In this document: one piece after another, positions 12,460 through 57,333 of the stretch
How positions within the stretch are numbered: the first letter of the stretch is position 1
Layout: every line of letters starts with the position of its first letter
NCBI GenBank assembly: GCA_018896815.1
Contig: JAHILY010000005.1
Span: forward strand, 1-61,591
Direction: 5' to 3'
Length of the DNA stretch: 61,591 bases
Source: Candidatus Omnitrophota bacterium
Lineage (GTDB): Bacteria; Omnitrophota; Gorgyraeia; Gorgyraeales; Gorgyraeaceae
Program-made: the position numbers and the translations under genes
Notes under the pieces: generated by a model
Told to the model about the DNA's origin: nothing
The model's input: only the letters and a program-made list of their open reading frames with translations
Databases searched by the model: none

Positions 12460-12568
12460 CCCCCCTGTTTTCTTTGTTTTCATCCCTAGAAATCGCGAAT
12501 GCGATTTCAGGGATTAAATCCCGGAAATTCTCCGAATTTCACGGGACAAAGAAAACAAAGAAGGGGGG
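12460..12568. repeat. Nested palindromic element, two-hairpin subtype (C6 ... G6 clamp)
   Basis: CCCCCCTGTTTTCTTTG... / ...CAAAGAAAACAAAGAAGGGGGG outer arms. Inner hairpins CCCTAGAAATCGC-GAAT-GCGATTTCAGGG and CCCGGAAATTC-TCC-GAATTTCACGGG. Same architecture as 44656-44766. Confidence 0.8.
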
Positions 12569-12605
12569 ATAATTCGCACCTTCATAGAAGTTAACCAGAG
12601 AAGAT

Positions 12606-21805: not shown

Positions 21806-22630
21806 ATGAAAAATATTTATTTACCTCATATAGCTGAAATAGTCGACGTAAAGCAGGAGACATCTGATATAAAGACGTTCACGCTCAGGTTCAAGGATAA
21901 GGCAGTTGGGAAGGCCTTTACCTATAAACCAGGCCAGTTTGTGGAGTTCTCGATATTTGGCGAGGGTGAATCGCCTTTCTGCATCTCGAATTCGCCCACG
22001 AGAGATTCCATAGAATGCAGTGTCAAGAAAATGGGCAAGGTCACCCAGGTCTTGCATGAGATGGATATAGGCGATGAGGTAGGCATAAGAGGGCCTTACG
22101 GCAATGGCTTTCCCCTTGATGAATTAAAAGGCAAGAATCTTTTATTTGTTGCCGGCGGAATAGGGCTCGCGCCCTTACGCTCCTTAATAAATTATTGTTT
22201 TGATAATAGAAAAGACTATAAGACTATTACTATCGTGAATGGCGCGCGCACGTCAAAAGACCTTGTCTATAAGGATGAATATAAGACATGGGAAAAGGCA
22301 AAGGATGCGCACCTACATTTAACTGTTGACTGCCAGGAGGATAACTGGACATGCATGGTAGGCGTGGTGCCAAAGATCCTGGAAGAGATAAAACCAACCT
22401 GTAAGGACAGCATAGCTATTGTCTGCGGCCCGCCAATAATGATAAAGTTCACGCTGCCTGTTCTTATGAGATTGGGTTTTTGCCCCGAGTCTATTCTTAC
22501 TACGTTAGAGATGAAGATGAAATGCGGCCTGGGTAAATGCGGCAGATGTAATATCGGAAATCTATATATTTGCAAGGATGGACCTGTTTTTAGTTATGCT
22601 CAATTAAATGGTATGAACTATGATCATTAA
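21806..22630 (+). CDS. FAD/NAD(P)-binding oxidoreductase with C-terminal 2Fe-2S (FlxA-like / AsrB / PyrK-like)
   Basis: Ferredoxin-reductase fold (RGPYGNGF, FVAGGIGLAPLRS) and MKCGLGKCGRCNIG cluster motif. Confidence 0.65.
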   Translation: MKNIYLPHIAEIVDVKQETSDIKTFTLRFKDKAVGKAFTYKPGQFVEFSIFGEGESPFCISNSPTRDSIECSVKKMGKVTQVLHEMDIGDEVGIRGPYGNGFPLDELKGKNLLFVAGGIGLAPLRSLINYCFDNRKDYKTITIVNGARTSKDLVYKDEYKTWEKAKDAHLHLTVDCQEDNWTCMVGVVPKILEEIKPTCKDSIAIVCGPPIMIKFTLPVLMRLGFCPESILTTLEMKMKCGLGKCGRCNIGNLYICKDGPVFSYAQLNGMNYDH

Positions 22631-23536
22631 GATTTGGTTAAAAGCCATAAGGGCGCCATTTTTTACCGCGACCATAATCCCGGTTACTCTGGGCTCAGTG
22701 ATTGCCTGGCATGATACCAATGATTTTATGTGGCTGAGATTCTGGCTTACGATGCTTGGTGTGCTGTTTGTGCACACAGGGACAAATCTAGCCAATGATT
22801 ATTTTGACCATGTCTCTGGATGCGATGAGGCAAATTCTACGCCTACGCCTTTTAGCGGAGGAAGCAGGGTGATCCAGAATGGACTTATTGCTCCCAGGAA
22901 GATTTTATATGTCTCCCTGGTCTCATTTATTATTGGCAGCGCAATCGGCCTTTATCTAAATCATTTGTGTAAAGGGAATATAATCCTCGTCTTAGGTATG
23001 ATCGGTGTATCTTTAGGATTTTTTATAGCGTCAAGTCATTCCGTATAGGATACGGGGGCTTCGGAGAGATGGCAGTAGGGATTGGCTTTGGTCCGCTGAT
23101 AGTATTGGGCTCATATTATGTACAAGCGCAGATTTTACCTTTCAGGATATTCCTGATATCAATCCCTGTCGGCATTTTAATTGCCCTGGTAGTATTCATA
23201 AACGAATTTCCAGATTACCTTGCTGATAAGTCAGCAGGGAAAAGGACTATCGTGGTCAGGCTGGGGAAGAAAAACGCCATGGTTTTATATCATATTCTGT
23301 TAGTTAGTGTATATGCGGCCATAGTATTTTTAGTAATATTTAAATTTTTACCAGTAGCGTCTTTGATCGTTTTTTTAAGCCTTCCTTTAACTATAAAGGC
23401 ATTCACAGTGTCCAGGAAAAATTTTGACAAGGTTTACGAATTATTACCAGCAAATGCCTCGACTATAGGGCTGCATATGGCAATAGGTGCACTATTATCC
23501 ATAGGCATAGCGTTAGACAGGATCTTATGCGCTTAA
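22620..23536 (+). pseudogene. menA: UbiA-family prenyltransferase (MenA-like), split by a 1-nt frame shift in a T6 run (23019-23024)
   Basis: NLANDYFDHVSGCD motif in ORF 22620-23048. Reading -1 after the T run gives ...GFFYSVKSFRIGYGGFGEMAVGIGFGPL..., contiguous with ORF 23069-23536. Confidence 0.65.
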
Positions 23537-35810: not shown

Positions 35811-35891
35811 CTTAGCCTTGAATAGAGTTTAGTCAATGACAAAATGCCAAAGTTATTGTAAACTAATACTAATGGCAAAGCAGGAGTTATT

Positions 35892-36335
35892 ATGGGGAAT
35901 TTTTTAAGCGCTATTTTATCATCCTATGAGGGAAAAGAGGATGAATTAATACCTATTTTACAGCAGGTTCAGGAGAAACTTGGTTATCTCCCTGAAGAGG
36001 CCATGCTTGAGATAGCCAAATTTACTGGTGTATCGGAAAGTAAGATATATGGCGTGGCGTCGTTTTATGCGCAGTTTCGCTTTACACCGGTAGGCAAGAA
36101 CAAAGTCACGGTATGTCGTGGGACTGCCTGCTATGTTCGTGGTGCGCCACGGATCCTGGAAGAAGTAGAAAGACGTTTAGGTATCCGGGATGGAGAGACT
36201 ACAAAAGACCTGGAATACACCATCGATACTGTGGCGTGTATTGGTTGCTGCGCACTATCTCCTTGCATGATGATCAATAAAGAGGTACATATCAAGTTAA
36301 CCCCACCGAAGATAGACAAGATCTTCTCCAAATAA
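35892..36335 (+). CDS. NuoE/HoxE-like 2Fe-2S subunit
   Basis: CRGTACYVRG ... CIGCCALSPC thioredoxin-like [2Fe-2S] motif. Confidence 0.8.
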   Translation: MGNFLSAILSSYEGKEDELIPILQQVQEKLGYLPEEAMLEIAKFTGVSESKIYGVASFYAQFRFTPVGKNKVTVCRGTACYVRGAPRILEEVERRLGIRDGETTKDLEYTIDTVACIGCCALSPCMMINKEVHIKLTPPKIDKIFSK

Positions 36336-36346
36336 GGTAATAGCTT

Positions 36347-38335
36347 ATGTTGTTTAAGGAACTACAAGAGCGCGCAAAAAAAGAGTGGGAAGGGATAAAA
36401 CAAAGTGAACCCCTGGTGATCTCAGTGGGTGCTGCTACTTGCGGTAGGTCTGCGGGCGCGCTATCTGTGCTTCAAGCCTTCAAAGATGAATTAAATACTC
36501 GTCGTATTCGTGCCCGCATCGTTGAGGTAGGATGTATCGGCCTATGTTACAGAGAGCCCATTGTTACTATTACTAAATCCGGACATCCTGGCATATGTTA
36601 TGGCAATATAACGCCTCCAAAGGTTATAGAACTCATCGAAGGTCATATTATCAATGACAAGGTCTTAGAAGATTATGCGCTGGGTACTATCGGAGAGGGC
36701 AGCATTGACAAAGTCCCTAGCCTCTTTCAGATCCCAGTGCTTAAGCCGCAAGTGAGACGTATCATGAATAATTTCGGGTTCATTGACCCTACAAATATAA
36801 ATCATTATATTGCTAATGGCGGCTATAGTGGCCTGGCAAAGGCCCAAAAGATGAAACCAGGACAAATAATTAATGAACTAAAGAAATCCGGCTTGAGAGG
36901 CAGGGGTGGCGCTGGTTTTCCTACCTGGCAAAAATGGCAGTTTTGCTTAAATGCAAAAGGTAGACATAGATATATTATCTGCAATGCTGACGAGGGCGAC
37001 CCAGGCGCTTTTATGAACAGGTCTCTTCTTGAAAGCGACCCGCATTCTGTATTGGAGGGACTACTTATAGCTGGTTATGCTATTGGAGCAGAAAAAGGCT
37101 ATATCTACTGTCGCGCAGAATATCCCTTAGCATTGGATAGACTAAAAATAGCTCTTAAAGAGATGGAAAAAAACATGTTTTCAGGAAACAATTGTGATTC
37201 CGGGTTTAATTTTCATATAGAGATAAAGCAGGGCGCAGGCGCTTTTGTTTGCGGCGAGGAGACCGCTCTTATTGCCTCTATCGAAGGCAAACGTGGCATG
37301 CCTAACCCCCGGCCACCTTTTCCTGCAATATCCGGGCTATGGGGAGAGCCTACTATTATCAATAACGTGGAGACCCTGGCGTCTGTAGCTTCTATATTTA
37401 AGAATAATGCTGATTGGTTTGGCCAATATGGTACGCAAAAAAGCAAGGGTACTAAGACTTTTGCGTTAGCAGGCAAGATAAGGCGCACTGGTCTTATTGA
37501 AGTGCCGTTAGGTGTTACGCTAAGAGAGGTAATATACGAGATAGGCGGCGGGATTCAGAACGATAAAAAATTCAAGGCAGTTCAGACAGGCGGCCCCTCA
37601 GGCGGATGCTTACCCGCTTCTCTTTTAGATGAACCTATTGATTACGAGTCACTCGCTCAAGCCGGCTCAATTATGGGTTCCGGCGGCATGGTGGTAATGG
37701 ACGAAGATACCTGCATGGTGGATATTGCCCGCTATTTTCTTGATTTTACGCAAAAAGAATCCTGCGGAAAATGTGTTCCCTGCAGGCTCGGCACAAAACA
37801 GATGCTTGATATTCTTAATGATATAACTCAAGGAAAAAGTAGATCTGAAGATATTGATCTTCTTCTCGAATTAGCTGAAGGGATAAAGGCAGGTTCACTC
37901 TGTGGTCTCGGCCAGACAGCGCCAAATACAGTACTTACTACTATTCGTTATTTTCGGGATGAGTACGAGGCGCATATAAAACATAGGAAATGTCCGGCAG
38001 GTGTTTGTAAAGCACTGATCCGCTATTCTATTGACGAAGCTAAGTGTACTGGATGCGGTGTTTGTAAAAAAGAGTGTCCAGGGGACGCCATCTCGCGGTA
38101 TAGGAAAGTATATCCCCCCTTGTTTCCTTCCCCGCAGATTTGCTGGTGCAAATCTAATCGCGGGGACAGGTCGGAAACAAAACAGGGGGGACGGCGAAAA
38201 TCGCTTAAAAATTATCGCCGCAAGGCGATTTTCTTGGGAGAAAAGAAAAAACCTCATAAGATAGATCAGGCAACCTGTATTAAATGCGGGGTCTGTAAAG
38301 AGGTCTGCAGATTTGAGGCTGTGAAGATAGAATAA
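36347..38335 (+). CDS. NuoF/HydB-like NAD(H)- and FMN-binding subunit with N-terminal 2Fe-2S domain and C-terminal 2x[4Fe-4S] domain (interrupted by a repeat element)
   Basis: GLRGRGGAGFPT, ICNADEGDPGAFM, ESCGKCVPCRLG, SLCGLGQ, CTGCGVCKKECP, CIKCGVCKEVC. Confidence 0.85.
   Translation: MLFKELQERAKKEWEGIKQSEPLVISVGAATCGRSAGALSVLQAFKDELNTRRIRARIVEVGCIGLCYREPIVTITKSGHPGICYGNITPPKVIELIEGHIINDKVLEDYALGTIGEGSIDKVPSLFQIPVLKPQVRRIMNNFGFIDPTNINHYIANGGYSGLAKAQKMKPGQIINELKKSGLRGRGGAGFPTWQKWQFCLNAKGRHRYIICNADEGDPGAFMNRSLLESDPHSVLEGLLIAGYAIGAEKGYIYCRAEYPLALDRLKIALKEMEKNMFSGNNCDSGFNFHIEIKQGAGAFVCGEETALIASIEGKRGMPNPRPPFPAISGLWGEPTIINNVETLASVASIFKNNADWFGQYGTQKSKGTKTFALAGKIRRTGLIEVPLGVTLREVIYEIGGGIQNDKKFKAVQTGGPSGGCLPASLLDEPIDYESLAQAGSIMGSGGMVVMDEDTCMVDIARYFLDFTQKESCGKCVPCRLGTKQMLDILNDITQGKSRSEDIDLLLELAEGIKAGSLCGLGQTAPNTVLTTIRYFRDEYEAHIKHRKCPAGVCKALIRYSIDEAKCTGCGVCKKECPGDAISRYRKVYPPLFPSPQICWCKSNRGDRSETKQGGRRKSLKNYRRKAIFLGEKKKPHKIDQATCIKCGVCKEVCRFEAVKIE
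38096..38236. repeat. Palindromic element copy inserted in frame (47 codons) in the nuoF-like gene
   Basis: TATAGGAAAGTATAT-C6 ... inner hairpin ... G6-ACGGCGAAAATCGC...GCGATTTTCTTG. The core is the reverse complement of 44767-44842 with about 7 differences (manual alignment). Confidence 0.75.
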
Positions 38336-38339
38336 AATA

Positions 38340-38365
38340 GTAGGCCAGGTTTAAACCTGGCCTAC
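38340..38365 (+). terminator. Perfect 26-bp palindrome between the nuoF-like gene and fdhA
   Basis: GTAGGCCAGGTTT|AAACCTGGCCTAC. No T-tract; probably an intercistronic structure. Confidence 0.4.
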
Positions 38366-38366
38366 G

Positions 38367-41084
38367 GTGATGATTATGATAAAGATAACCATTGATAATA
38401 TACAAGTAAAAGCTAAAGCAGGGACGACAATATTAGAAACAGCGCTTGAAAATGATATTTACATCCCGCATCTTTGCTATTACCCTGATCTGAAACCAGT
38501 TGGCGCGTGCCGATTGTGTATGGTAGAGATCCCTGGAAGAGGGTTAACGATTTCATGCAAGACCTTGGTAGAAAAAGGAATGGTTGTAAGGACAGAAAGC
38601 CCCCAGACCAGTAAGGTGCGGAGAACTGCTGTAGAGCTGCTTATTGTAAATCACCATGCGGATTGTCTTTCCTCCACCAAAGATACTCAGTGTAAATTAA
38701 AGGAGATAGCTACTTATGTTGGCATTGAGGAAGAGCGGTTAAAGCGATTGAGGGCCACGACTAAAACTACTCCTATTGACAGATCCAATCCTTTTTTTGA
38801 CCGCGAACCTGATAGGTGCGTACTTTGTGGTATTTGCGTAAGAACCTGTGAAGAGATACAAGGCGCGAGTGCTATAGATTTTGCGTTTAGAAGCTATGAC
38901 ACTACTATTAGTACTTTTGGAAACAAACCTATCCTGGAATCCAGATGCGAGTCCTGTGGCGAGTGCGTAGTGAGATGTCCTGTAGGCGCATTAAGGCCTA
39001 AGGATTACCAAAAGCCTTCCCGTGAGGTAAAGAGCGTGTGTACCTATTGCGGCGTTGGCTGCGGGATCTACCTGGGCGTCAGGGATAACTCTATTGTTAG
39101 TGTACGGGGCAATACTGATAGCCCTGCAAATGAAGGCAGGCTTTGCGTCAAGGGGCGATTTGGCTATAATTTTGTTAATCACCCTGACCGGTTGACTACG
39201 CCCCTTATCAAGAAAAATGGCAAATTTGTTGAAGCTACATGGACAGAGGCGCTGGAACTTATTGCAAAAAAATTCTCTCTTTATAAAAAGGAGCAGTTTG
39301 CTGCTATTGCTTCAGCCAGGTGCACTAACGAAGAAAACTATCTTGTTCAAAAATTTACCAGGGCGGTAATGGGAACAAATAATGTTGACCACTGCGCGCG
39401 GCTTTGCCACGCGCCTACTGTTGCAGGCCTGGCTCAATCCTTAGGTAGCGGCGCGATGACCAATACCATCAGCGAGATCGGCCTTACCGCATGTATCTTA
39501 GCCATAGGCACCAATACCACATCCGCCCACCCTGTAATCGGGCTGCAGGTAAGAAAAGCAGCTAAGCACTCTGCAAAGCTTATCGTGGCCAATCCTAAAG
39601 AGATCGACCTTTGTCGCTTCGCTGATGTATTCATACGACACCGGCCCGGTACTGATATAGCCCTCTTGATGGGTATGATGCGAGTTATTCTCGATGAAGG
39701 GCTATATGACTTACCCTTTATTGAAAAACGTACCGAGGGTTTCGAGGCCTTTAAGAAGACGCTTTCTAATTTTGACATGGATTTTGTAGAGAAGACAACA
39801 GGCGTAGACCGAAAGACGATTATTAAAGCAGCCAGGATCTATGCTACCTCTAAACCCAGCACTATTCTATATGCTATGGGTATCTGCCAGCATTCTCATG
39901 GCACTGATAATGTACTGGCTATCAGTAATCTATCGCTCATCACGGGGAACATCGGCAAGCCCTCATCAGGGGTCAACCCGTTACGGGGGCAGAACAATGT
40001 TCAGGGCGCCTGTGATATGGGATCTTTGCCTAATGTCTATCCCGGTTACCAGAAAGTGGATGACCCTGAGGTAAAAAAGAAATTTGAATCAGCCTGGGGT
40101 GTTCCTTTAGATCCATCGCGCGGGTTGACTCATTTTGAGATATCTGATGCCGCGTATGACAAGAAAATAAAAGCCCTTTATCTTGTCGGTGAAAATCCGA
40201 TCTTAAGCGAAGCAAATGCCAGTCATGTCGAAGACGCTATAAAAAGATTGGAATTTTTTGTGGTCCAGGATATATTCCTTACAGAAACCGCTGAATTGGC
40301 TGATGTAGTCTTGCCTGCAGCAAGCTTTGCTGAGAAGGACGGGACTTTCACGAACAGCGAGCGACGCGTTCAGAGGATACATAAGGCAATAGAGCCTGTT
40401 GGAAATGCAAAGCCTGACTGGTGGATCACATGCCAGATCGGTAAAAAACTGGGAGGTAAAGGATTTGATTTTTCAGATCCTGGAGAGATCATGGATGAGA
40501 TCGCTTCTTTAGTCCCGAATTATAAAGGCATATCCTATGATCGGCTGGAAAAAGGGGGACTCCAGTGGCCCTGTCTTGATTATAAACATAAAGGGACACA
40601 GATCCTTCACACCGAACGCTTCGCTACAAAAAGCGGCAAGGCTAAATTTATATCACTTGAATATAGGCCATCACAAGAAATCCCTGATAGCGAGTATCCG
40701 CTCGTCCTCACTACTGAGAGCAGTCTTTACCACTATACCTCAGGCGCTATGACGCGAAGAGTGGATGGCCTTAATATATTAAGGAAGCAGGAACTGGTAG
40801 AGATCAACCCGGAAGATGCGAATAGGCTTGGGATCAGTGATGGCCAGACAGTGCGTATAACTTCCCGGCGGGGCGAGGTGCAGGCTAAAGCAAAGGTAAC
40901 AGATGTTCCGTTGCCAGGCGTGATCTCTATGAGCATTCATTTTGCCGAAACAAAGACCAATCTAGTTACCAATGCTGCTTTGGATCCTATATCAAAGACA
41001 CCTGAGACAAAGGTATGCGCGGTGAAAGTCTGCCCTGTTAAAAGCTTTAACCACAGAGAACACAGAGGAAAAGATATAGTTTAA
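38367..41084 (+). CDS. fdhA: NAD-linked formate dehydrogenase alpha subunit (FdsA/FdhA type, Cys active site)
   Basis: N-terminal 2Fe-2S (C36, C47, C50, C64), NuoG-like clusters, CTYCGVGC, HCARLCHAPT (Cys, no in-frame TGA), MGD domains. Confidence 0.85.
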   Translation: MMIMIKITIDNIQVKAKAGTTILETALENDIYIPHLCYYPDLKPVGACRLCMVEIPGRGLTISCKTLVEKGMVVRTESPQTSKVRRTAVELLIVNHHADCLSSTKDTQCKLKEIATYVGIEEERLKRLRATTKTTPIDRSNPFFDREPDRCVLCGICVRTCEEIQGASAIDFAFRSYDTTISTFGNKPILESRCESCGECVVRCPVGALRPKDYQKPSREVKSVCTYCGVGCGIYLGVRDNSIVSVRGNTDSPANEGRLCVKGRFGYNFVNHPDRLTTPLIKKNGKFVEATWTEALELIAKKFSLYKKEQFAAIASARCTNEENYLVQKFTRAVMGTNNVDHCARLCHAPTVAGLAQSLGSGAMTNTISEIGLTACILAIGTNTTSAHPVIGLQVRKAAKHSAKLIVANPKEIDLCRFADVFIRHRPGTDIALLMGMMRVILDEGLYDLPFIEKRTEGFEAFKKTLSNFDMDFVEKTTGVDRKTIIKAARIYATSKPSTILYAMGICQHSHGTDNVLAISNLSLITGNIGKPSSGVNPLRGQNNVQGACDMGSLPNVYPGYQKVDDPEVKKKFESAWGVPLDPSRGLTHFEISDAAYDKKIKALYLVGENPILSEANASHVEDAIKRLEFFVVQDIFLTETAELADVVLPAASFAEKDGTFTNSERRVQRIHKAIEPVGNAKPDWWITCQIGKKLGGKGFDFSDPGEIMDEIASLVPNYKGISYDRLEKGGLQWPCLDYKHKGTQILHTERFATKSGKAKFISLEYRPSQEIPDSEYPLVLTTESSLYHYTSGAMTRRVDGLNILRKQELVEINPEDANRLGISDGQTVRITSRRGEVQAKAKVTDVPLPGVISMSIHFAETKTNLVTNAALDPISKTPETKVCAVKVCPVKSFNHREHRGKDIV

Positions 41085-41190
41085 TATAGTAGGAAAGTAT
41101 ATCCCCCTAGATTTACTCCTTATAGTCGTAAATCTAAGCAGGGGGGACTGCGAAAATTGCAGAAAGTTATTGCCGAGGGCAATTTTCTTG
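41085..41190. repeat. Palindromic element copy filling the fdhA-mobB intergenic gap
   Basis: TATAGTAGGAAAGTATAT-C5-TAGATTTAC..GTAAATCTA-AGCA-G6-ACTGCGAAAATTGC...GGCAATTTTCTTG. Confidence 0.75.
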
Positions 41191-41666
41191 TGAAGACGAT
41201 AGTGATATCAGGTAGTCATAGCAATATTGGCAAGACCTCCGTGGCTGAGGTTATGCTCAGCAGTTTAAATGGCTGGTCAGGGCTCAAGGTAACAACAGTA
41301 AAAGAGAAGTCTGGATGCGAGCGTGGTAGTAATTGTACGGTGTGTTCTGAATTAAAAGATGATTTTGATATTATTACGGATAAAAAGATAATCAACGAGA
41401 AAAATACAGACACTGCCCGAATGAAAAGCTCAGGCGCGAAGAAAGTAGTTTGGCTCAAGGCGAATACGAGTGGTCTGAAGCAGGGTTTAAAAAAGGCGCT
41501 TTACTGTTTGCGGGGTTCGAAAGGCGTGGTAATCGAAGGGACAAGTGTTTTAAAATATATAAATCCGGATCTGGCAATATATCTAAAGGATGGCGCAACG
41601 CGACCGAAACCAAGCGCTAAACAGACAGAGAAAAAGGCAGATATAGTTTATGACATTAATAGATAA
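41190..41666 (+). CDS. mobB: MobB-like P-loop protein
   Basis: VISGSHSNIGKTS Walker A. GTG 41190 preferred because the upstream TTG start (41157) lies inside the repeat element. Confidence 0.55.
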   Translation: MKTIVISGSHSNIGKTSVAEVMLSSLNGWSGLKVTTVKEKSGCERGSNCTVCSELKDDFDIITDKKIINEKNTDTARMKSSGAKKVVWLKANTSGLKQGLKKALYCLRGSKGVVIEGTSVLKYINPDLAIYLKDGATRPKPSAKQTEKKADIVYDINR

Positions 41667-42636
41667 TTTCAATCGCAGGATAGATTATTTGCGCATCTCA
41701 GTCACAGACAGGTGTAACTTGAGGTGTAAATATTGTATGCCTGCATGTGGTATTGCGAATAAACTTCACAGCGATCTTCTATCATTTGAAGAGATTGCAA
41801 AGATTGTGAGGATAGGAGTTTCTTTAGGTGTAGATAAGGTCCGTCTTACAGGTGGCGAGCCATTAGTGAGGAAGGATATTGTAGGACTTGTGAAGATCTT
41901 AGCTAATATAGAAGGCCTAAAGGATATTTCCATGACAACTAATGGCATTCTCTTAAAGAATTATGCGTCACAACTTAAAAAAGCCGGACTCAAAAGACTA
42001 AATATAAGTTTAGACACATTGCAAGAAGAGAAATATAGAGATATAACAAGGGGAGGAGAATTAAAAGAGGTAAAAGAGGCGATCAAACTTTCTCTAGAAG
42101 CAGGATTTCATCCATTAAAGATAAACATGCTTCTTTTGGCCGGCATAAATGAGGACGAGATCATTGATTTTTTAAGATTGACGATAAACCTGCCTATACA
42201 CGTCAGGTTCCTGGAGTTTATGCCGACCAAGAATAATGAGTTCTGGCATTCCAGGGAGGATTTTATATCGTATAAAGAGGTAGTGGGTATCTCTAAAGGG
42301 TTAGGGCACGTGGAAGACATCGATGTTCATGGCAATGGACCGGCAAAAAACTTCAGGATCAAACACGCAAGAGGCACATTTGGATTTATTGCTCCTTTGA
42401 GCGAAAGTTTTTGTTCAAGCTGTAACAGGCTCAGACTTACATCAGATGGATTCTTAAAGGCATGTCTGCATTCAGACCTTAAGATCAATCTAAAAGATCC
42501 TATAAGGCGGGGCATGGATGAAAAAAGTCTTATCCAGCTCATAAACCTGGCAGTAAATACAAAACTAAAAGAACACATTCTTAGCGAGAATCCGATTTCA
42601 TCATCAGAATATCTGATGTGTCAGATAGGGGGATAA
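41650..42636 (+). CDS. moaA: GTP 3',8-cyclase MoaA (radical SAM)
   Basis: YLRISVTDRCNLRCKYCMP, LTGGEPL, C-terminal CSSCNRLRLTSDG. Confidence 0.9.
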   Translation: MTLIDNFNRRIDYLRISVTDRCNLRCKYCMPACGIANKLHSDLLSFEEIAKIVRIGVSLGVDKVRLTGGEPLVRKDIVGLVKILANIEGLKDISMTTNGILLKNYASQLKKAGLKRLNISLDTLQEEKYRDITRGGELKEVKEAIKLSLEAGFHPLKINMLLLAGINEDEIIDFLRLTINLPIHVRFLEFMPTKNNEFWHSREDFISYKEVVGISKGLGHVEDIDVHGNGPAKNFRIKHARGTFGFIAPLSESFCSSCNRLRLTSDGFLKACLHSDLKINLKDPIRRGMDEKSLIQLINLAVNTKLKEHILSENPISSSEYLMCQIGG

Positions 42637-42640
42637 AGCA

Positions 42641-43099
42641 GTGGACAGTGGCGATATAAGAATGGCGGATATAAGTGAAAAGTCACAGACTAAGAGGATG
42701 GCTATTGCGCAGGCAAAGGTTTTTATGAAAAGGGATACTTTGTCAAAGCTGATCAAGGGTAAGATTCCCAAGGGTAATGTCCTTGCTTGCGCAAATATAG
42801 CAGGTATTATGGCTGCTAAGAAGACGAGTGAGCTTCTTCCCCTGTGCCATCCTTTAGAGATCACTGATGTAAAATTGGAGTTTGATATCGATGAGAAAAA
42901 GGCCTGTATATTAGTAAAGGCAATAGTTTCTGTTCTTGGTAGGACTGGCGTTGAAATGGAGGCATTGACTGCAGCCTCTATTGCATCTCTAACTATCTAT
43001 GATATGTGTAAGCCGGTGGATAAAGATATAGTGATTTCGGATATCATGCTTTTAGAAAAAAGCGGGGGAAAGAGTGGCGCCTATAAAAGGCAGGGTTAA
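42641..43099 (+). CDS. moaC: Cyclic pyranopterin monophosphate synthase MoaC
   Basis: KGNVLACANIAGIMAAKKTSELLPLCHPL, GVEMEALTA, IYDMCK. Confidence 0.85.
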   Translation: MDSGDIRMADISEKSQTKRMAIAQAKVFMKRDTLSKLIKGKIPKGNVLACANIAGIMAAKKTSELLPLCHPLEITDVKLEFDIDEKKACILVKAIVSVLGRTGVEMEALTAASIASLTIYDMCKPVDKDIVISDIMLLEKSGGKSGAYKRQG

Positions 43100-43538
43100 G
43101 TCTATCTCCACATCCTCAAAAAAAGGCTGCAAGAAAAAGAACACGCAGATCGCTGTATTAAAAGAGGATTTTGGTATTGTGGGCGACGCGCATGGAGGAG
43201 GCGAGAGACAGGTGAGTTTGCTCGCAATCGAGTCTATTGAAAAGATGCGAAAAAAAGGCGTGGATGTAACTTCAGGTGATTTTGCAGAAAATATTACAAC
43301 CTCTGGCATGGACTTGATGAGCTTAAAACTTGGCTCTCATTTAAAGATAGGTAAATCTGCCTTGTTAGAGATCACGCATATCGGCAAGGTGTGTCATGAT
43401 AGATGCGAGATCTTTCGTCAGGTAGGAGACTGTGTCATGCCAAGAGAAGGAATATTCGCAAAGGTCTTAAAAGGAGGCGTTATTAAACCAAGAGATAGAA
43501 TGGAGGTAGTGAAGCAATGGAAAAGCCATACACTGTAG
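43074..43538 (+). CDS. MOSC-domain protein
   Basis: GIVGDAHGG..RQVSLL, GDFAENITTSG, IGKVCH. Confidence 0.65.
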   Translation: MAPIKGRVKSISTSSKKGCKKKNTQIAVLKEDFGIVGDAHGGGERQVSLLAIESIEKMRKKGVDVTSGDFAENITTSGMDLMSLKLGSHLKIGKSALLEITHIGKVCHDRCEIFRQVGDCVMPREGIFAKVLKGGVIKPRDRMEVVKQWKSHTL

Positions 43539-44002
43539 CGGTATTAACGATAAGTGATAAATGTTCTAAAGGTCAGCGTGAGGACGAGAGCGGAAAGATC
43601 ACCCAGGACCTTATTAAGAAGCTTCCTGGTGATGTCGTGAAATACGAGATCATCCCTGACGAATCTGAGATGATCAAGGAGCGTATTAAAAATTATTGTG
43701 ATGAATTGAAGGTAGACCTGGTCCTTACAAATGGCGGCACTGGGTTTACTACAAGGGATGTTACCCCTGAGGCCACAAAAGAGGTTATTGAGAAAGAGAT
43801 CCCTGGCATTCCTGAAGCGATGCGCACGCTTTGTCTCGGCCTCACCAAAAGGGCAATGCTTTCAAGAGGCATCTCGGGCATTAGAGGAAAGACATTGATA
43901 CTTAATTTACCAGGCAGCACCAGGGGCGCTAAAGAATCCTTGGAAGCTATACTTGATGGCCTGGCTCATGGCCTGGATATGGTTATCGGAAGGGAACACT
44001 AA
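43517..44002 (+). CDS. moaB: MoaB/MogA-family molybdopterin adenylyltransferase-like protein
   Basis: VAVLTISDK...DESG, LVLTNGGTGFTTRDVTPEA, PGSTRGA. Confidence 0.8.
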   Translation: MEKPYTVAVLTISDKCSKGQREDESGKITQDLIKKLPGDVVKYEIIPDESEMIKERIKNYCDELKVDLVLTNGGTGFTTRDVTPEATKEVIEKEIPGIPEAMRTLCLGLTKRAMLSRGISGIRGKTLILNLPGSTRGAKESLEAILDGLAHGLDMVIGREH

Positions 44003-44524
44003 GTGATTCTACTAAATCTTTTCCTTTCATTCCTTAGAATAGGATTATTCGCAATAGGCGGGGCGTATTCGTTCCTGCCCCTCATTGAAAAAGAAGTTGT
44101 TGTGAAGTATGAGTGGCTGACAAAGAGTGAGTTTCTGGATGTGTTGGGGATGGTGAAGATATTGCCAGGTGCTATATCAATCAAGTTTGCCACCTATACT
44201 GGTTTTAAGATCGCAGGCATCCCCGGCGCTATTATAGCGAACCTCGGCAACATCCTTGGCCCAGCCAGCCTGATTATCATTGCGTCCAGCATATACGCTA
44301 AATACAAGGACGTCCCCAGTGTCCAGGGCGCGTTCAACGTGATCCAACTCGTGATTTTTGCCATGATCCTCGCCGTAGCTTTCCAGCTAGTAAGCTCATC
44401 CCAACTCCTGTCACTGCGAAACATACTGATTATCGTTGTCTCGTTCCTGCTCTTTTCCTTTACCAAGATTCACCCCGCTATCATAATCATCGCCGCCGCT
44501 CTTCTCGGCGCTTTTTTGAAATAA
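44003..44524 (+). CDS. chrA: Short-chain CHR (chromate-ion transporter) family protein, single half-size gene
   Basis: FLRIGLFAIGGAYSFLPLIEKEVV...WLTKSEFLD. 173 aa. GTG start abuts the moaB stop. Confidence 0.7.
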   Translation: MILLNLFLSFLRIGLFAIGGAYSFLPLIEKEVVVKYEWLTKSEFLDVLGMVKILPGAISIKFATYTGFKIAGIPGAIIANLGNILGPASLIIIASSIYAKYKDVPSVQGAFNVIQLVIFAMILAVAFQLVSSSQLLSLRNILIIVVSFLLFSFTKIHPAIIIIAAALLGAFLK

Positions 44525-44640
44525 TATAAACCTGGCGGCCCAGGGTATTCATTCCAAGAAAAAATCAAAAACTTCCCTTGACCCGCCAAAGAGCTGGAGA
44601 GGTCTACACAAAATGTTCAAAGAACATTTTGCTTGATAGC

Positions 44641-44903
44641 ATAGGAAATTATATGCCCCCCTGTTTTGTTTCGCTTCACCCCTAGAAATTGCAAAGCAAT
44701 TTCAGGGACTTTAGTCCTGGGAATTCTTCGAATTCCTCAGGGCTCAACAAAACAAAGCAGGCCTGTCCCCCCTGCTTTGTTTTTGACCTGTCCCCGCGAT
44801 TAGATTTGCGCCAGCAAATCTGCGGGGAAAAAACAAGGGGGGAGGGGACTGCGAAAAATCTCTTTGAGTCACCGAGCTCGCTGAAAGGCGGGCGAGATTT
44901 TTC
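44641..44903. repeat. Composite of the palindromic repeat family: two-hairpin unit, C6..G6 unit and GAAAAATCTC hairpin
   Basis: ATAGGAAATTATATG-C6 (44656); inner hairpins as at 12460-12568; second C6 (44767) ... G6 (44837); then GAAAAATCTC (44853) .. GAGATTTTTC (44894). Confidence 0.8.
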
Positions 44904-44931
44904 TTGAGTTTGTTGTTTTTAGGAGTATAAT
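44904..44931 (+). promoter_or_regulatory. Promoter candidate for the Spy-like gene
   Basis: TTGAGT-16 nt-TATAAT. The 13-mer TAGGAGTATAATA is repeated at 57346-57358. Confidence 0.4.
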
Positions 44932-44953
44932 ACAGAAAAAGAAAGGGGGATGT

Positions 44954-45403
44954 ATGTGGAAAAGGTTAATTGTTTTACTGCTCGTGGTTTCTTTTGGTTT
45001 GATGGCGAGCTATGTTTATGCAGGAGGGTGTGAAAAAGGAAAAAGCGACAAGCATAATATGGAGGACAAGGTATTTCACAAGGCCATGATGCTGATTAAA
45101 AATCAGGAAGAATTAGGTCTTACAGACGAACAAATAAAGAAGGTAAAGGATCTGAAGATTGCTACTAAGAAGGACGTGATAAAGAAAAAGGCTGATATTG
45201 AGATACTTGGTCTGGATATAAAGGCAGCCTTGTGGGATGATGTAGTAGATTTAAACGCACTAAATGCATTGATTGACACGAAGTATGAGCTTAAAAAAGA
45301 AAAGACAAAGTCTTTGGTAGCTGCATATGTGGAGCTCAAAGGCGTTTTGACAGAAGAACAAAAGACAAAACTCAAAGATCTTTGCAAAAAAGATAAAAAG
45401 TAA
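44954..45403 (+). CDS. Spy/CpxP-family periplasmic protein (LTxxQ repeats)
   Basis: Signal peptide. LGLTDEQIKKVKDL and VLTEEQKTKLKDL motifs. Confidence 0.6.
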   Translation: MWKRLIVLLLVVSFGLMASYVYAGGCEKGKSDKHNMEDKVFHKAMMLIKNQEELGLTDEQIKKVKDLKIATKKDVIKKKADIEILGLDIKAALWDDVVDLNALNALIDTKYELKKEKTKSLVAAYVELKGVLTEEQKTKLKDLCKKDKK

Positions 45404-45408
45404 AACTT

Positions 45409-45446
45409 AGTAACAGAGGAAGGTTTAAAAACCTTCCTCTGTTACT
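45409..45446 (+). terminator. Stem-loop terminator candidate
   Basis: AGTAACAGAGGAAGGT-TTAAAA-ACCTTCCTCTGTTACT: 16-bp perfect stem. Confidence 0.55.
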
Positions 45447-54836: not shown

Positions 54837-54887
54837 TACCTTGTCATAAATTAATATTGACACCAGCTGATAGCCGTGGTTTAATTA

Positions 54888-55022
54888 GTTGAAAGCGGGG
54901 AGGTCGTGACTGGCCTGAGAGTTCCGTGAGAGCGGATTACCCGATGAACCTGAACTGGATAATGCCAGCGGAGGGAAAAGAGGTTGTATAAGCCCTATGC
55001 CTGCATAGGGCCTTTTATTTTT
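54888..55022 (+). promoter_or_regulatory. TPP (THI-box) riboswitch with intrinsic terminator expression platform
   Basis: GGGGAGGTC..TGGCCTGAGA..ACCCGATGAACCTGAACTGGATAATGCCAGCGGAGGGA. Then GCCCTATGC..GCATAGGGC plus T-tract (54992-55022), and AGGAGG-ATG of thiM. Confidence 0.85.
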
Positions 55023-55032
55023 AGGAGGAAAC

Positions 55033-55818
55033 ATGGATATATATTCTGTGTTAGAAAGGGTGAGGGCCCAGAAACCCCTCGTGCATCACCTGACAAACTG
55101 GGTGACGATCTACGATTGCGCCAATATAGTAAAGGTATTCGGAGCTGCGCCTGTTATGGCGCACGCAGCTGAGGAGGTCGAGGATATGGCTGCGCTTGCC
55201 TCAGCCCTTGTGCTTAATATAGGTACCCTGACCCCTGATTTTATTGAGTCAATGAAGCTGGCTGCGAAGTCAGCCAATAAAAAGGGCATCCCTGTCACGC
55301 TGGATGTGTGCGGCGCAGGCGCTACAAAATTAAGGGACGAAAAGTGCTTTGAACTCCTCGACCAGGTTAAAATAGACGTGATCAAAGGCAATGCCTCAGA
55401 AGTCGCAAGGATCGCTGGCGAAAAGGTCAGGACAAAAGGCGTGGATTCAAGCGAGGTGGAGAAGGATCTGGTAGAGCTGGCAAAAACCCTTGCTGCAAAA
55501 AGAAACGCGACAGTCGTAATAACAGGAAAAGAAGATATAGTGGCTGATAAGGCGAAACATTTCATTGTAAAAAACGGATGTGAGATGATGGCGCATGTGG
55601 TGGGGACTGGATGCATGGCCGCATCAGTCATAGGGGCATTTAGTGCGGTAGAAAAGGATCTGGCCAAGGCAGCTACAGCCGGACTTTGTTGCTATGAAAT
55701 CGCGGCAGAGATCGCTTCTAAGGACAGCGCCGGGCCAGGCACATTTAAAGAAAAACTTTTTGATAATATTTACAGTTTAGATAAAGGCAAAATAGAAAAA
55801 CTACAGAGGGTAGAGTGA
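55033..55818 (+). CDS. thiM: Hydroxyethylthiazole kinase
   Basis: PLVHHLTNWVTIYDCANIVKVFGAAPVMA, VLNIGTL, VIKGNASE, GTGCM. Confidence 0.85.
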   Translation: MDIYSVLERVRAQKPLVHHLTNWVTIYDCANIVKVFGAAPVMAHAAEEVEDMAALASALVLNIGTLTPDFIESMKLAAKSANKKGIPVTLDVCGAGATKLRDEKCFELLDQVKIDVIKGNASEVARIAGEKVRTKGVDSSEVEKDLVELAKTLAAKRNATVVITGKEDIVADKAKHFIVKNGCEMMAHVVGTGCMAASVIGAFSAVEKDLAKAATAGLCCYEIAAEIASKDSAGPGTFKEKLFDNIYSLDKGKIEKLQRVE

Positions 55819-56429
55819 TAAAAGGTTATTATTTTATAACAGACGCAGATATTAGCAAAAGCGGCAATGCGAGCGACGTAAGAGCTGCTATAACTACAGG
55901 GGTAACTGTCGTGCAGTACAGAAGCAAGCTCGATTCGACCGAGCATATGATTAAAGAGGCAAAGGAGTTAAAAAGGATCTGCGCCGGGAAAGCATTATTC
56001 ATTATTAACGATAGGGTCGGGATCTGTCTTTCAGTGGATGCAGACGGCGTTCATCTGGGCCAGGGCGACATGTCCTATGAGACAGCCCGGGATCTTCTTG
56101 GCAGGGACAAAATAATCGGCGTGACCGTGCATGACCTTAAGGAGGCAGTCATGGCGGAGAAAAAAGGCGCTGACTATTTAGGGGTGAGCCCTATATTTTC
56201 TACGACGACAAAGGATGACGCAGGAAGGCCCTGCGGCGCAGCGCTGATAAAAGAGATAAAAAAGGCATGCAGGGTGCCTGTTACCGCAATAGGCGGGATC
56301 GATCTCGATAATGCAAAGGAGGTCATTGACGCCGGCGCTGACGCCATATGCGCGATATCAGCTGTAATAACAAAGGATGATGTAAAGGGCGAAGTCGAGA
56401 AGTTCCAGGCGTTGTTTAAACAAAGATGA
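55815..56429 (+). CDS. thiE: Thiamine-phosphate synthase
   Basis: GYYFITD, VVQYRSK, INDRVGICLSVDADGVHLGQGD, GVSPIFSTTTK, AIGGI. Confidence 0.85.
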   Translation: MIKGYYFITDADISKSGNASDVRAAITTGVTVVQYRSKLDSTEHMIKEAKELKRICAGKALFIINDRVGICLSVDADGVHLGQGDMSYETARDLLGRDKIIGVTVHDLKEAVMAEKKGADYLGVSPIFSTTTKDDAGRPCGAALIKEIKKACRVPVTAIGGIDLDNAKEVIDAGADAICAISAVITKDDVKGEVEKFQALFKQR

Positions 56430-56441
56430 AGGGAGGTCTGT

Positions 56442-57254: not shown

Positions 57255-57333
57255 ATGCTTTACACTTTAGTCCTGGACTAAAGTGTAAAGCATTCTCAGG
57301 GATCCCAAGCAAGGCTGAGGTTTTGCTTGGGAT
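57254..57333 (+). terminator. Two consecutive strong stem-loops after thi4
   Basis: AATGCTTTACACTTTAGT-CCTGG-ACTAAAGTGTAAAGCATT (18-bp stem). ATCCCAAGCAA-N10-TTGCTTGGGAT followed by a T-rich stretch. Confidence 0.6.

What the first reader, a model, noticed from the sequence alone, without database searches (positions are those of the whole stretch)
38096..38236. Palindromic repeat element inserted in frame inside the NuoF-like Fe-S subunit
A ~141-nt (47-codon) segment sits between the two C-terminal ferredoxin motifs of the 662-aa NuoF/HydB-like protein (CTGCGVCKKECPGDAIS | ... | GEKKKPHKIDQATCIKCGVCKEVC). It encodes RYRKVYPPLFPSPQICWCKSNRGDRSETKQGGRRKSLKNYRRKAIFL. Its DNA is a copy of the intergenic repeat family seen at 41085-41190 and 44641-44903. 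It has the same left flank (TAGGAAAGTATAT followed by C6). Its inner hairpin CCCCGCAGATTTGC..GCAAATCTAATCGCGGGG is the reverse complement of 44792-44827 with one substitution. It ends with G6 and the GCGAAAATCGC..GCGATTTTCTTG module. The length is a multiple of three, there is no stop in the host frame, and the downstream cluster motif stays in frame. In-frame colonisation of genes by palindromic elements is known for Rickettsia palindromic elements. Here it hits a redox enzyme at the linker between two [4Fe-4S] sites.
Basis: partly seen in the sequence, partly recalled or inferred. Interest (0 to 1): 0.78.

Follow-up and report, generated by a model that had tools for sequence, protein, structure and literature searches.

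The report
Palindromic repeat inserted in-frame in NuoF
A 141-base copy of a small hairpin-forming repeat, found across the uncultivated phylum Omnitrophota, has landed exactly between two codons of an iron-sulfur flavoprotein gene and adds a 47-residue loop without breaking the reading frame. This behaviour is known from Rickettsia and a few other bacteria but has not been described for this phylum.

Summary
Window 38096-38236 is a clean 47-codon insertion in the NuoF/HydB-like gene (36347-38335). It sits between the two CxxCxxCxxxC motifs of the C-terminal 2x[4Fe-4S] domain. It is absent from 14 aligned orthologues, from the solved homologue whose alignment was printed (9bov_B), and from a syntenic locus that is 89% identical in DNA.

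The insert belongs to a modular repeat family with three parts: a left module (CAGTA-TAGGAAAKTATAT), a C5-6...G5-6 hairpin that can hold nested hairpin units in either orientation, and a terminator-like right hairpin ending ...GATTTTCTTG. Two more full copies lie in the window, and about 20 more were found in other Omnitrophota assemblies.

A second independent case was found. The same element, in the same frame, sits inside YbeY in another metagenome.

No target-site duplication, no convincing terminal inverted repeats, no Rfam match and no transposase in the window were found. The element is not built to be coding. Both host proteins are predicted to keep their folds, with the insert as a low-confidence loop. 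NuoF shows no sign of decay.

The kind of event is known (RPE, intragenic REP/ERIC/BOX), but the family is new. The mobilisation mechanism is unresolved. An IS200/IS605- or REP-like single-strand route is my leading guess.

The parts
36347..38335 (+). Host gene: NuoF/HydB-like flavoprotein subunit with a C-terminal 2x[4Fe-4S] ferredoxin domain. It is the second gene of a nuoE-nuoF-fdhA operon.
   Evidence: Pfam domains. 100% match to a protein annotated NuoF of a Candidatus Omnitrophica MAG. Solved homologues are HydB/HoxF/NfnB-type subunits.
38096..38236 (+). The inserted repeat copy: 141 nt = 47 codons, encoding RYRKVYPPLFPSPQICWCKSNRGDRSETKQGGRRKSLKNYRRKAIFL (pI 11.0).
   Evidence: Clean gap in protein and DNA alignments. 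Profile matches. Peptide properties.
38096..38113 (+). Left module CGGTA-TAGGAAAGTATAT (family consensus CAGTA-TAGGAAAKTATAT).
   Evidence: Conserved in about 25 copies from several genomes.
38114..38190 (+). Long hairpin C6-TTGTTTCC...GGAAACAAAACA-G6. It carries a nested 36-nt unit at 38130-38165 (CCCCGCAGATTTGC-TGGT-GCAAATCT-AATC-GCGGGG).
   Evidence: RNA fold z = -6.1. Consensus fold has 3 compensatory pairs. The same unit occurs inverted at 44765-44842.
38191..38236 (+). Right module ACGGCGAAAATCGC...ATCGCC-GCAA-GGCGAT-TTTCTTG. This is an A-tract/hairpin/T-tract that looks like an intrinsic terminator, and the element ends at ...CTTG.
   Evidence: Terminator-like site at 38214-38229 plus T run. 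Outer stem GAAAATCGC/GCGATTTTC is kept in all copies, with compensatory changes in copy 2 (ATTGC/GCAAT) and in copy 3 and L026 (ATCTC/GAGAT).
41084..41190 (+). Copy 2, short form. It lies between the fdhA stop codon and the next gene, whose GTG start uses the last G of the element. In L001 these two genes overlap by 4 nt.
44636..44906 (+). Copy 3, composite form: left module, two hairpin units (the second, 44765-44842, inverted relative to the nuoF copy), and right module. The terminal TTG forms a TTGAGT-N16-TATAAT promoter-like site.
12460..12569 (+). Stand-alone C6...G6 hairpin unit without the left and right modules, in an intergenic position.
   Evidence: 71% direct match to 44656-44741. 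Sequence read.

Best explanation
**What it is**
A copy of a non-autonomous, modular palindromic repeat family of Omnitrophota was inserted between codons 583 and 584 (orthologue numbering) of the nuoF-like gene. The family consists of a left module, a C-run/G-run hairpin that can hold nested hairpin units, and a terminator-like right hairpin ending in CTTG.

**Why the gene survived**
- This copy is 141 nt long.
- It entered between two codons.
- It is stop-free in that frame.
The gene therefore stays open and now encodes a 47-residue, very basic extra loop. The loop sits in the turn between the two short strands (AIS / KID) that link the two [4Fe-4S] motifs.

**Shown**
- The insertion, its family membership, its exact boundaries, and the absence of a target-site duplication.
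- A second independent in-frame case in YbeY.

**Inferred**
- The protein still works. The insert loops out at the surface, all eight cluster cysteines are intact, and there is no excess of substitutions.
- In-frame copies are simply the survivors of a filter. The element is not designed to code.
- The family spreads as single-stranded DNA by an IS200/IS605- or REP/RAYT-like enzyme encoded elsewhere. It would insert 3' of a YTTR-like site in a fixed orientation. About 35-40% of my belief is on this step.
For: **Insertion**
- Clean 47-aa gap against 14 orthologues.
- The alignment to solved chain 9bov_B is split at the same point.
- Empty site in syntenic locus L001 at 89% nt identity.

**Family**
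- Left 18-mer occurs 3 times against 0.1 expected.
- nhmmer E-values of 1e-11 to 1e-17 for the three modules.
- The same architecture occurs in other Omnitrophota MAGs and metagenomes, often at contig ends.
- There are up to 3 modules or copies on one 2.8-kb contig.

**Hairpins**
- Fold z = -6.1.
- Compensatory pairs are present in both hairpins.

**Second case**
- phmmer with the 47-aa peptide finds one YbeY (E 4e-11, 74% identity).
- That YbeY has a clean 45-47 aa insertion against 11 orthologues in the printed alignment (64 more aligned, summary only).
- Its DNA is the same element in the same frame.
- Two separately deposited assemblies give identical sequence.

**Tolerance**
- AlphaFold models keep the host folds. 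In NuoF the pLDDT is 78-95 around the insert and 31-36 inside residues 587-631. YbeY behaves likewise.
- dN/dS for nuoF is 0.18, against 0.17 for fdhA.
- There are fewer window-specific than L001-specific substitutions, including in the ferredoxin domain.

**Filter**
- Frame +0 is open in only 9 of 17 copies, and length is a multiple of 3 in 8 of 17.

**Mechanism hints**
- No duplication at the nuoF junctions.
- Constant right end ...CTTG.
- Left flank YTTR in about 24 of 27 sites.
- The empty site in L001 already reads TCTCA.
- A tandem junction reads ...TTCTTG|CAGTATAGG.
- All copies are in one orientation on a contig whose + strand is the leading strand.
Against: - Function of the modified NuoF is not shown. 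If the insertion is recent, substitution tests have no power.
- The Fer4 domain has a somewhat higher dN/dS (0.36, n = 70 codons).
- The insert adds two cysteines (CWC) and a terminator-like hairpin inside an operon. Either could be harmful.
- Reads could not be inspected for this contig.
- For the single-strand model: the left and right hairpins are unrelated in sequence, unlike IS608-type ends.
- Only one filled/empty pair defines the boundaries.
- Copy 2 has 41 extra unexplained bases on its left.
- No HUH/Y1 transposase was found in the window, and the rest of the genome was not available.
Confidence: 0.8

Rival explanations
1. The insertion is real but inactivating. The ferredoxin domain, or the whole subunit, no longer works and the gene is a young pseudogene. 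The open frame is luck.
For: - The chance of an open in-frame result is not small. Two of the three forward frames of this copy are open, and 8 of 17 copies have a length divisible by 3.
- dN/dS of the ferredoxin domain is 0.36 against 0.16 for the rest of the gene.
- The insert is strongly basic, contains CWC next to cluster ligands, and has pLDDT below 50.
- A neighbouring gene (UbiA, 22620-23536) is split by a frameshift, so the contig does carry damaged genes or sequence errors.
Against: - All eight cluster cysteines are intact and the 32 residues after the insert remain in frame.
- The window lineage shows no excess of substitutions.
- The same element in the same frame sits in YbeY, a widely conserved RNase, with the rest of the fold confidently predicted.
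- The insertion lies in a turn between two strands of the domain.
Confidence: 0.15
2. Assembly artefact. A repeat copy was spliced into nuoF by the assembler or represents only a minor variant of the population.
For: - The contig comes from a metagenome-assembled genome.
- The repeat family breaks assemblies elsewhere, with copies at contig ends in L007, L012-L014, L022, L035 and L074.
- This protein has a single cluster member.
Against: - Both junctions are exact to the base, and the flanks continue the orthologous gene without loss.
- The insert is not identical to any other copy in the window. The inner unit is 91% identical to copy 3 and in the opposite orientation.
- At 141 nt the copy is shorter than a typical read pair.
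- The analogous YbeY insertion is identical in two separately deposited assemblies.
Confidence: 0.05
3. The family is primarily a functional RNA or regulatory cassette, such as a leader, terminator or promoter module. The nuoF copy would then act at RNA level, for example by attenuating transcription of the downstream fdhA or marking an mRNA processing site, rather than being mere selfish DNA.
For: - Every copy with a nearby downstream gene is in sense orientation, often a few bases before the start codon.
- One copy lies between a TTGACA-N17-TATACT promoter and its gene.
- The right module is a hairpin plus T run, with compensatory changes that preserve two alternative pairings.
- In several loci the terminal TTG is part of a -35-like TTGACA followed by a -10-like box.
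Against: - No Rfam family matches.
- The central hairpin varies from 35 to about 200 nt and accepts nested units in both orientations. That fits mobile DNA better than a specific RNA fold.
- Gene direction and replication direction are fully confounded on this contig: 58 of 60 ORFs are on the leading strand. Orientation is therefore not evidence for RNA function.
- Translation through the hairpin inside nuoF would normally suppress termination (established knowledge, not tested here).
Confidence: 0.12
4. The 47 residues are an ancestral or lineage-specific linker of the protein, not a mobile insertion.
For: None beyond the open frame.
Against: - Absent from all 14 aligned orthologues, and the top listed full-length homologues are all shorter than the query.
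- Absent from the printed solved homologue.
- The DNA is a member of a mostly intergenic repeat family.
- The empty site is seen at 89% nt identity.
Confidence: 0.01

Closest known systems
Rickettsia palindromic elements (RPE; Ogata et al. 2000/2002, as summarised in PMC10969869 and PMC3733652)
   Same: A roughly 100-150 bp palindromic repeat found both between genes and in frame inside unrelated housekeeping genes. It adds a peptide segment at a position compatible with the fold. The mobilising enzyme is unknown.
   Different: Different phylum and no shared sequence is known. RPEs carry a conserved open frame and nearly half of the copies are intragenic. Here no frame is systematically open and only 2 of about 19 sampled sites are intragenic. 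This family is modular and carries a terminator-like module.
REP / BIME elements of Proteobacteria, including intragenic REPs (PMC3733652)
   Same: Short GC-rich imperfect palindromes combined into mosaics, with units in either orientation. They are mostly extragenic and transcribed, sometimes supply stop codons, and occasionally lie inside ORFs. No target duplication.
   Different: No conserved GTAG or CGTC tag on the units. There are fixed non-palindromic left and right modules around the hairpins. No RAYT gene has been seen so far.
IS200/IS605-derived miniature elements (PATE-like), mobilised as single strands by a Y1 HUH transposase (established knowledge, from memory)
   Same: Subterminal hairpins rather than terminal inverted repeats, and no duplication. 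Insertion occurs next to a short conserved sequence that resembles the element's own 3' end. Orientation is uniform with respect to the replication strand. Seamless excision would be possible.
   Different: The left and right hairpins are unrelated to each other. No transposase partner was identified. The target rule rests on one empty site plus a flank consensus.
Pneumococcal SPRITE, BOX and RUP repeats, and intragenic ERIC/BOX copies (PMC3049150, PMC10969869)
   Same: Small interspersed repeats, one of which (SPRITE) mimics a rho-independent terminator. BOX is modular. Some copies form in-frame fusions with genes.
   Different: Unrelated sequence and host. SPRITE has no left module or nested hairpins.

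Membership tests
Rickettsia palindromic elements (RPE) | Small palindromic repeat inserted in frame inside functional protein genes | tested here: met
   nuoF and ybeY.
Rickettsia palindromic elements (RPE) | The element itself carries a conserved open reading frame, so that copies are generally coding-compatible | tested here: not met
   Frame +0 is open in 9 of 17 copies, +1 in 5 of 17 and +2 in 0 of 17. Lengths are variable.
Rickettsia palindromic elements (RPE) | Sequence belongs to one of the RPE families of Rickettsia | not testable with these tools
   No RPE consensus was available in any library used. The host here is Omnitrophota.
MITE (classical, DDE-transposase derived) | Terminal inverted repeats of about 15-30 bp | tested here: not met
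   The ends TAGGAAAGT and CAAGAAAAT (reverse complement of the right end) match at only 6 of 9 positions. The predicted closing stem needs G-U pairs.
MITE (classical, DDE-transposase derived) | Target-site duplication flanking the element | tested here: not met
   Filled versus empty site: ATCTC(G)|CGGTA...TTCTTG|GGAGAA against ATCTCA|GGAGAA. There is no repeat longer than the ambiguous single G. Only one site could be tested.
REP / BIME | 20-40 nt GC-rich imperfect palindromes assembled into mosaics with units in both orientations | tested here: met
   36-nt units CCCYGC...GCRGGG and CCCTAGAAAT...ATTTCAGGG are nested or in tandem. One unit is inverted between copies.
REP / BIME | Conserved GTAG or CGTC tetranucleotide at one end of the palindrome | tested here: not met
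   The units start with CCCC/CCCT and have no such tag. An unrelated GTAG...CTAC palindrome lies at 38340-38365.
REP / BIME | Associated RAYT (REP-associated tyrosine transposase) gene in the genome | not tested
   No transposase-like Pfam domain in the 60 ORFs of the window. The rest of the genome was not available.
IS200/IS605-derived miniature elements | Subterminal hairpins at both ends, no inverted terminal repeats, no target duplication | tested here: met
   Consensus fold gives one hairpin 18 nt from the left end and one 7 nt from the right end. No duplication was found.
IS200/IS605-derived miniature elements | Insertion immediately 3' of a short conserved target that is not duplicated | tested here: inconclusive
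   Left flank YTTR in about 24 of 27 distinct sites. The empty site in L001 already reads TCTCA. Only one empty site is available, and the flank could be part of the element.
IS200/IS605-derived miniature elements | Left and right hairpins similar to each other (bound by one transposase) | tested here: not met
   The left hairpin is C-run/TTGTTTTC and the right hairpin is GAAAATCGC/ATCGCC. They share no similarity.
Intrinsic (rho-independent) terminator, for the right module only | GC-containing hairpin followed directly by a T run | tested here: met
   Sites at 38214-38229, 41169-41183 and 44876-44893, each with a T-rich tail. Activity is not testable here.
Intein or self-splicing intron | Hint/intein motifs, or a group I/II intron RNA fold | tested here: not met
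   No such Pfam domain in the protein. No Rfam match at gathering score or at E <= 5. 141 nt is too short for either (established knowledge).

The most novel reading that the evidence does not exclude
The family may be a phylum-wide, strand-specific single-stranded-DNA element that inserts and excises seamlessly, with no duplication and a right end that mimics its own target. In-frame copies in core genes such as nuoF and ybeY would then be reversible, or would be gradually exapted as basic surface loops. The same element would double as a mobile terminator / 5'-leader / -35 donor that rewires operon junctions. Three junctions of this one fdh operon differ from the 89%-identical relative by palindromic insertions.
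Probability: 0.15. Interest if true: 0.6.

Novelty: new member of a known kind. Interest (0 to 1): 0.5.

Why it matters
- It extends in-frame colonisation of genes by palindromic repeats, best known from Rickettsia, to a free-living or episymbiotic candidate phylum known only from metagenomes. There are two independent cases in unrelated core proteins.
- It gives annotators a concrete signature: CAGTATAGGAAAKTATAT-C5/6...G5/6-ACNGCGAAAATCGC...GCGATTTTCTTG. This explains odd length outliers, C-terminal extensions, shifted start codons and contig breaks in Omnitrophota MAGs.
- It marks a turn in the HydB/NuoF ferredoxin domain that apparently tolerates 47 extra residues.
- The family's modularity, its constant CTTG end and its lack of target duplication make it a tractable case for finding the enzyme that moves such elements.

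Tried and rejected
**Searches with no result**
- Rfam, both at gathering thresholds over the whole window and at E <= 5 over 38000-45000, found nothing on any repeat copy. Only a TPP riboswitch elsewhere and a weak SECIS-like hit in fdhA appeared.
- The word-indexed protein search with the 47-aa peptide found nothing. The exhaustive phmmer search was needed.
- The exact NuoF protein is not in the contig index, so no second assembly of this locus could be fetched.
- In viral contigs the left pattern gave two hits. One was a weak left-module-only match and the other showed no module match. The right pattern gave none. There is no sign of a phage vector.
- The GTDB representative scan did not return the source MAG itself, so the genome-wide copy number could not be counted.

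**Ideas tested and dropped**
- A promoter reading of the left module (TTGATA...TATAT) was rejected because the spacing is about 10 nt.
- A closing stem between the two ends is predicted for single sequences but not in the consensus fold. The relevant positions do not vary, so it remains untested.
- The 41 extra bases to the left of copy 2 match nothing else.
- Site 3 could not be compared with L001 because synteny ends there.
- A systematic open frame, as in RPEs, was looked for and not found.
- Element orientation as evidence for an RNA function was dropped once nearly all genes of the contig proved to be on the leading strand.
Full report
**1. The observation**

The window is a complete 61,591-nt contig of a Candidatus Omnitrophica MAG. 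The 662-aa product of 36347-38335 is 100% identical to a protein deposited under that name.

The ORF has the NuoF FMN and NADH_4Fe-4S domains. It ends in a two-cluster ferredoxin domain whose Pfam match is stretched over residues 561-654. It lies in a nuoE (35892-36335) - nuoF - fdhA (38367-41084) operon, followed by molybdenum-cofactor genes.

Aligning the C-termini of the query and 14 homologues gives a single clean gap of 47 columns, AIS|RYRKVYPP...RRKAIFL|GEKKK. The top listed full-length homologues with a ferredoxin tail are 608-645 aa long.

In the printed alignment to the best solved homologue (9bov_B), the match is split in two. Query 25-583 aligns to chain 3-552 and query 629-662 aligns to chain 551-584. 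The other top HydB/HoxF/NfnB chains also end their main matched stretch at query residues 582-586.

A syntenic locus from another Omnitrophota MAG (L001, GCA_042570105.1) is 89-90% identical in DNA across nuoE-nuoF-fdhA. It shows the empty site...GCTATCTC-A-GGAGAAAAG, against ...GCCATCTC-G[CGGTATAGGAAAG...GATTTTCTTG]GGAGAAAAG in the window. The net difference is +141 nt, with no duplicated flank.

**2. The insert is a repeat copy**

- The 18-mer TAGGAAAGTATATCCCCC occurs three times in the window with at most 2 mismatches, at 38101, 41090 and 44642. About 0.1 occurrences are expected by chance.
- Profiles built from the copies in the window and other genomes hit all three window copies, with E-values from 1e-7 to 1e-17 for the left, inner and right modules.
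- The 78-nt hairpin unit 38115-38192 matches 44765-44842 only in reverse complement: 72/79 against 57/94 when aligned directly.
- A fourth, flank-less hairpin unit lies at 12460-12569.

**3. Anatomy of the family**

Scans of GTDB representative genomes and JGI metagenomes with the left-end pattern returned about 25 true copies. They come from several Omnitrophota MAGs and from one MAG labelled Planctomycetia. Many sit at contig ends, which shows that the repeat breaks assemblies.

The unit has three parts.
- **(a) Left module.** CAGTA (or ATAGCA) followed by TAGGAAAKTATAT.
- **(b) Central hairpin.** It is closed by C5-6 and G5-6 and by TTGTTTTC/GAAAACAA. Its tip is either a tetraloop (96-nt form) or holds one or two nested 36-70-nt hairpin units of at least two types. 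In composite copies, extra units follow in tandem and in either orientation.
- **(c) Right module.** ACNGCGAAAATCGC-N-ATCGCC-GNRA-GGCGATTTTCTTG. This is an A-tract/hairpin/T-tract that the terminator scan picks up in all three window copies.

The consensus fold of ten long copies gives two hairpins with three compensatory pairs in the left one. The right stem shows compensatory changes in copy 2 (ATTGC/GCAAT) and in copy 3 and L026 (ATCTC/GAGAT).

Solo right modules and tandem junctions (...GATTTTCTTG|CAGTATAGGAAAT) occur in L017 and L056.

Rfam has no match.

**4. Where copies sit**

Of 17 distinct full copies, 15 are intergenic and 2 are inside genes.

Every copy with a gene within about 110 nt downstream is in the sense orientation of that gene. 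Copies often end a few bases before the RBS or start codon, for example ahead of what read as pgk and rpsM from the first residues. One copy lies between a TTGACA-N17-TATACT promoter and a pilin-like gene, so it is part of a 5' UTR. In several loci the terminal TTG is part of a -35-like hexamer followed by a -10-like box.

In the window, copy 2 sits directly after the fdhA stop codon, and FdhA ends in 12 extra residues relative to L001. Copy 2 also supplies the G of the GTG start of the next gene. In L001 those two genes overlap by 4 nt.

Orientation cannot be read as evidence for an RNA role. 58 of 60 ORFs of the contig are on the + strand and GC skew is positive throughout, so transcription and replication direction are confounded.

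**5. A second in-frame case**

An exhaustive phmmer search with the 47-aa peptide against 1.84 billion representatives found one real hit (E 4e-11, 74% identity). It is a 189-aa YbeY.

Against 11 Omnitrophota YbeY sequences of 141-169 aa in the printed alignment, it has a clean 45-47 aa insertion. The insertion lies between the AF(P/G)MRD... strand and LGDVVIS. A 65-sequence alignment was also made for the structure prediction, but only its summary was seen.

Its DNA is the same element, CAGTATAGGAAATTATAT-C6-...-G6-ACGGCGAAAATCG...GCGATTTTCTTG. It is 138 nt long and is read in the same frame (QYRKLYPPLF...KQGGRRKS...AIFL). The contig is identical in a JGI and an ENA assembly.

Because the library holds one representative per 50% cluster, insertion-bearing proteins that cluster with normal orthologues are hidden. 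One hit is therefore a lower bound.

**6. Is the element made to code?**

No. Across 17 copies, frame +0 is open in 9, +1 in 5 and +2 in none. The reverse frames are open in 7-8. Length is divisible by three in 8.

The two intragenic copies are therefore best seen as the survivors of a filter requiring the right length, the right phase and no stop. They do not reflect a coding design as proposed for RPEs (PMC10969869).

**7. State of the host protein**

- All eight cluster cysteines and the 32 residues after the insert are intact.
- dN/dS against L001 is 0.18 for nuoF, 0.17 for fdhA and 0.33 for nuoE. The 70 alignable codons of the ferredoxin domain give 0.36.
- With six outgroups, the window lineage has fewer private substitutions than L001. 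Counts are 13-21 against 18-31 overall, and 0-3 against 3-8 in the C-terminal part.
- The AlphaFold2 model has mean pLDDT 85.7. It places the insert (residues 587-631, pLDDT 31-36, no secondary structure) between strands 582-584 and 637-639 of an otherwise confident domain.
- The YbeY model behaves the same way.
- The peptide is very basic (pI 11.0, 14 K+R) and contains CWC.

These data fit a tolerated surface loop but do not prove function. A recent insertion would leave no trace in substitution rates.

**8. Mechanism**

Shown:
- Exact boundaries and no target-site duplication at the one testable site.
- No convincing terminal inverted repeats.
- An invariant right end ...CTTG.
- A left flank that reads YTTR in about 24 of 27 distinct sites.
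- In the one empty site, this flank (TCTCA) was already present before insertion.
- No transposase-like domain exists in any of the 60 ORFs of the window.
- The element is not on viral contigs.

Inferred: the combination of subterminal hairpins, no duplication, a target resembling the element's own 3' end, uniform strand and nested or inverted hairpin units is what IS200/IS605-type and REP/RAYT-type single-strand systems produce (established knowledge; PMC3733652 for REPs).

Against this inference:
- The two hairpins are unrelated to each other.
- Copy 2 carries 41 unexplained extra bases on its left.
- No enzyme partner is known.

I give this route roughly 35-40%. The remainder is split between an unknown recombinase and copy-paste by recombination or repair between copies.

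**9. Comparison with known systems and novelty**

In-frame insertion of small palindromic repeats is documented for several families. RPEs are the extreme case. It is also documented for intragenic REP, ERIC, BOX, Coxiella and Anabaena MITEs (PMC10969869, PMC3733652, PMC2229807).

A full-text search listed no paper that mentions Omnitrophica or Omnitrophota together with these repeat terms.

The event is therefore a new member of a known kind. The family is undescribed, modular and carries a terminator-like module. The phenomenon itself is not new.

**10. Verdict**

Interest is moderate (0.5). This is a clean, doubly attested example in an uncultivated phylum, with a tractable open question about how the element moves. 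It does not overturn anything known.

Noticed in passing
window 38340-38365: A perfect 26-nt palindrome, GTAGGCCAGGTTTAAACCTGGCCTAC (GTAG...CTAC, REP-like), fills a 31-nt nuoF-fdhA spacer. In the 89%-identical locus L001 the two genes overlap by 4 nt. A third junction of this operon has therefore been remodelled by a palindromic insertion.
   Followed up: partly
window 35828-41029 versus L001 9485-14516: nuoE-nuoF-fdhA is 89-90% identical in DNA to L001 (dS about 0.3). The flanking syntenic genes are 71-77% identical, and MoaA shows only 50% amino-acid identity. This suggests recent exchange of the formate-dehydrogenase operon between lineages.
   Followed up: partly
window 1-61591: 58 of 60 ORFs of at least 100 aa are on the + strand, and GC skew is positive in every 4-kb bin (0.10-0.26). 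Gene-strand bias on the leading strand is extreme.
   Followed up: partly
window 39402-39460: A weak SECIS_3 match (33.6 bits, gathering score 63) starts 3 nt before the TGC codon (39405-39407) of ...ARLCHAPTVAGL..., the position that I recall holds selenocysteine in Sec-type formate dehydrogenases. This would be a Cys-type FdhA with a SECIS-like remnant, or simply a coding constraint.
   Followed up: partly
window 22620-23536: A UbiA prenyltransferase is split into two ORFs in different frames (22620-23048 and 23069-23536; Pfam profile positions 2-95 and 120-236). The break lies at a small palindrome, CCGTATAGGATACGG. It could be a frameshift, a pseudogene or a sequence error.
   Followed up: no
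L024 330-366 (YbeY contig): Immediately upstream of the in-frame element, the YbeY coding sequence contains a perfect 20-nt palindrome, GGACGAGGCATGCCTCGTCC, preceded by GTAG. It covers residues CRDEACLVH, which diverge from the orthologue consensus MRDSRGLS. This may be a second small palindromic replacement.
   Followed up: no
window 45409-45446 and 57254-57294: Perfect 38-nt and 41-nt palindromes lie directly after gene ends. Their sequences are unique and do not belong to the repeat family. They are probably terminators.
   Followed up: no
L056 1-2773: One 2.8-kb contig carries two full copies and one solo right module, all in one orientation. One junction...GATTTTCTTG|CAGTATAGGAAAT, is a head-to-tail tandem.
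   Followed up: yes
window 54886-54993: A TPP riboswitch (55.2 bits, above the gathering score) lies upstream of thiamine genes (ThiM-, ThiE- and Thi4-like ORFs at 55033-57254).
   Followed up: no
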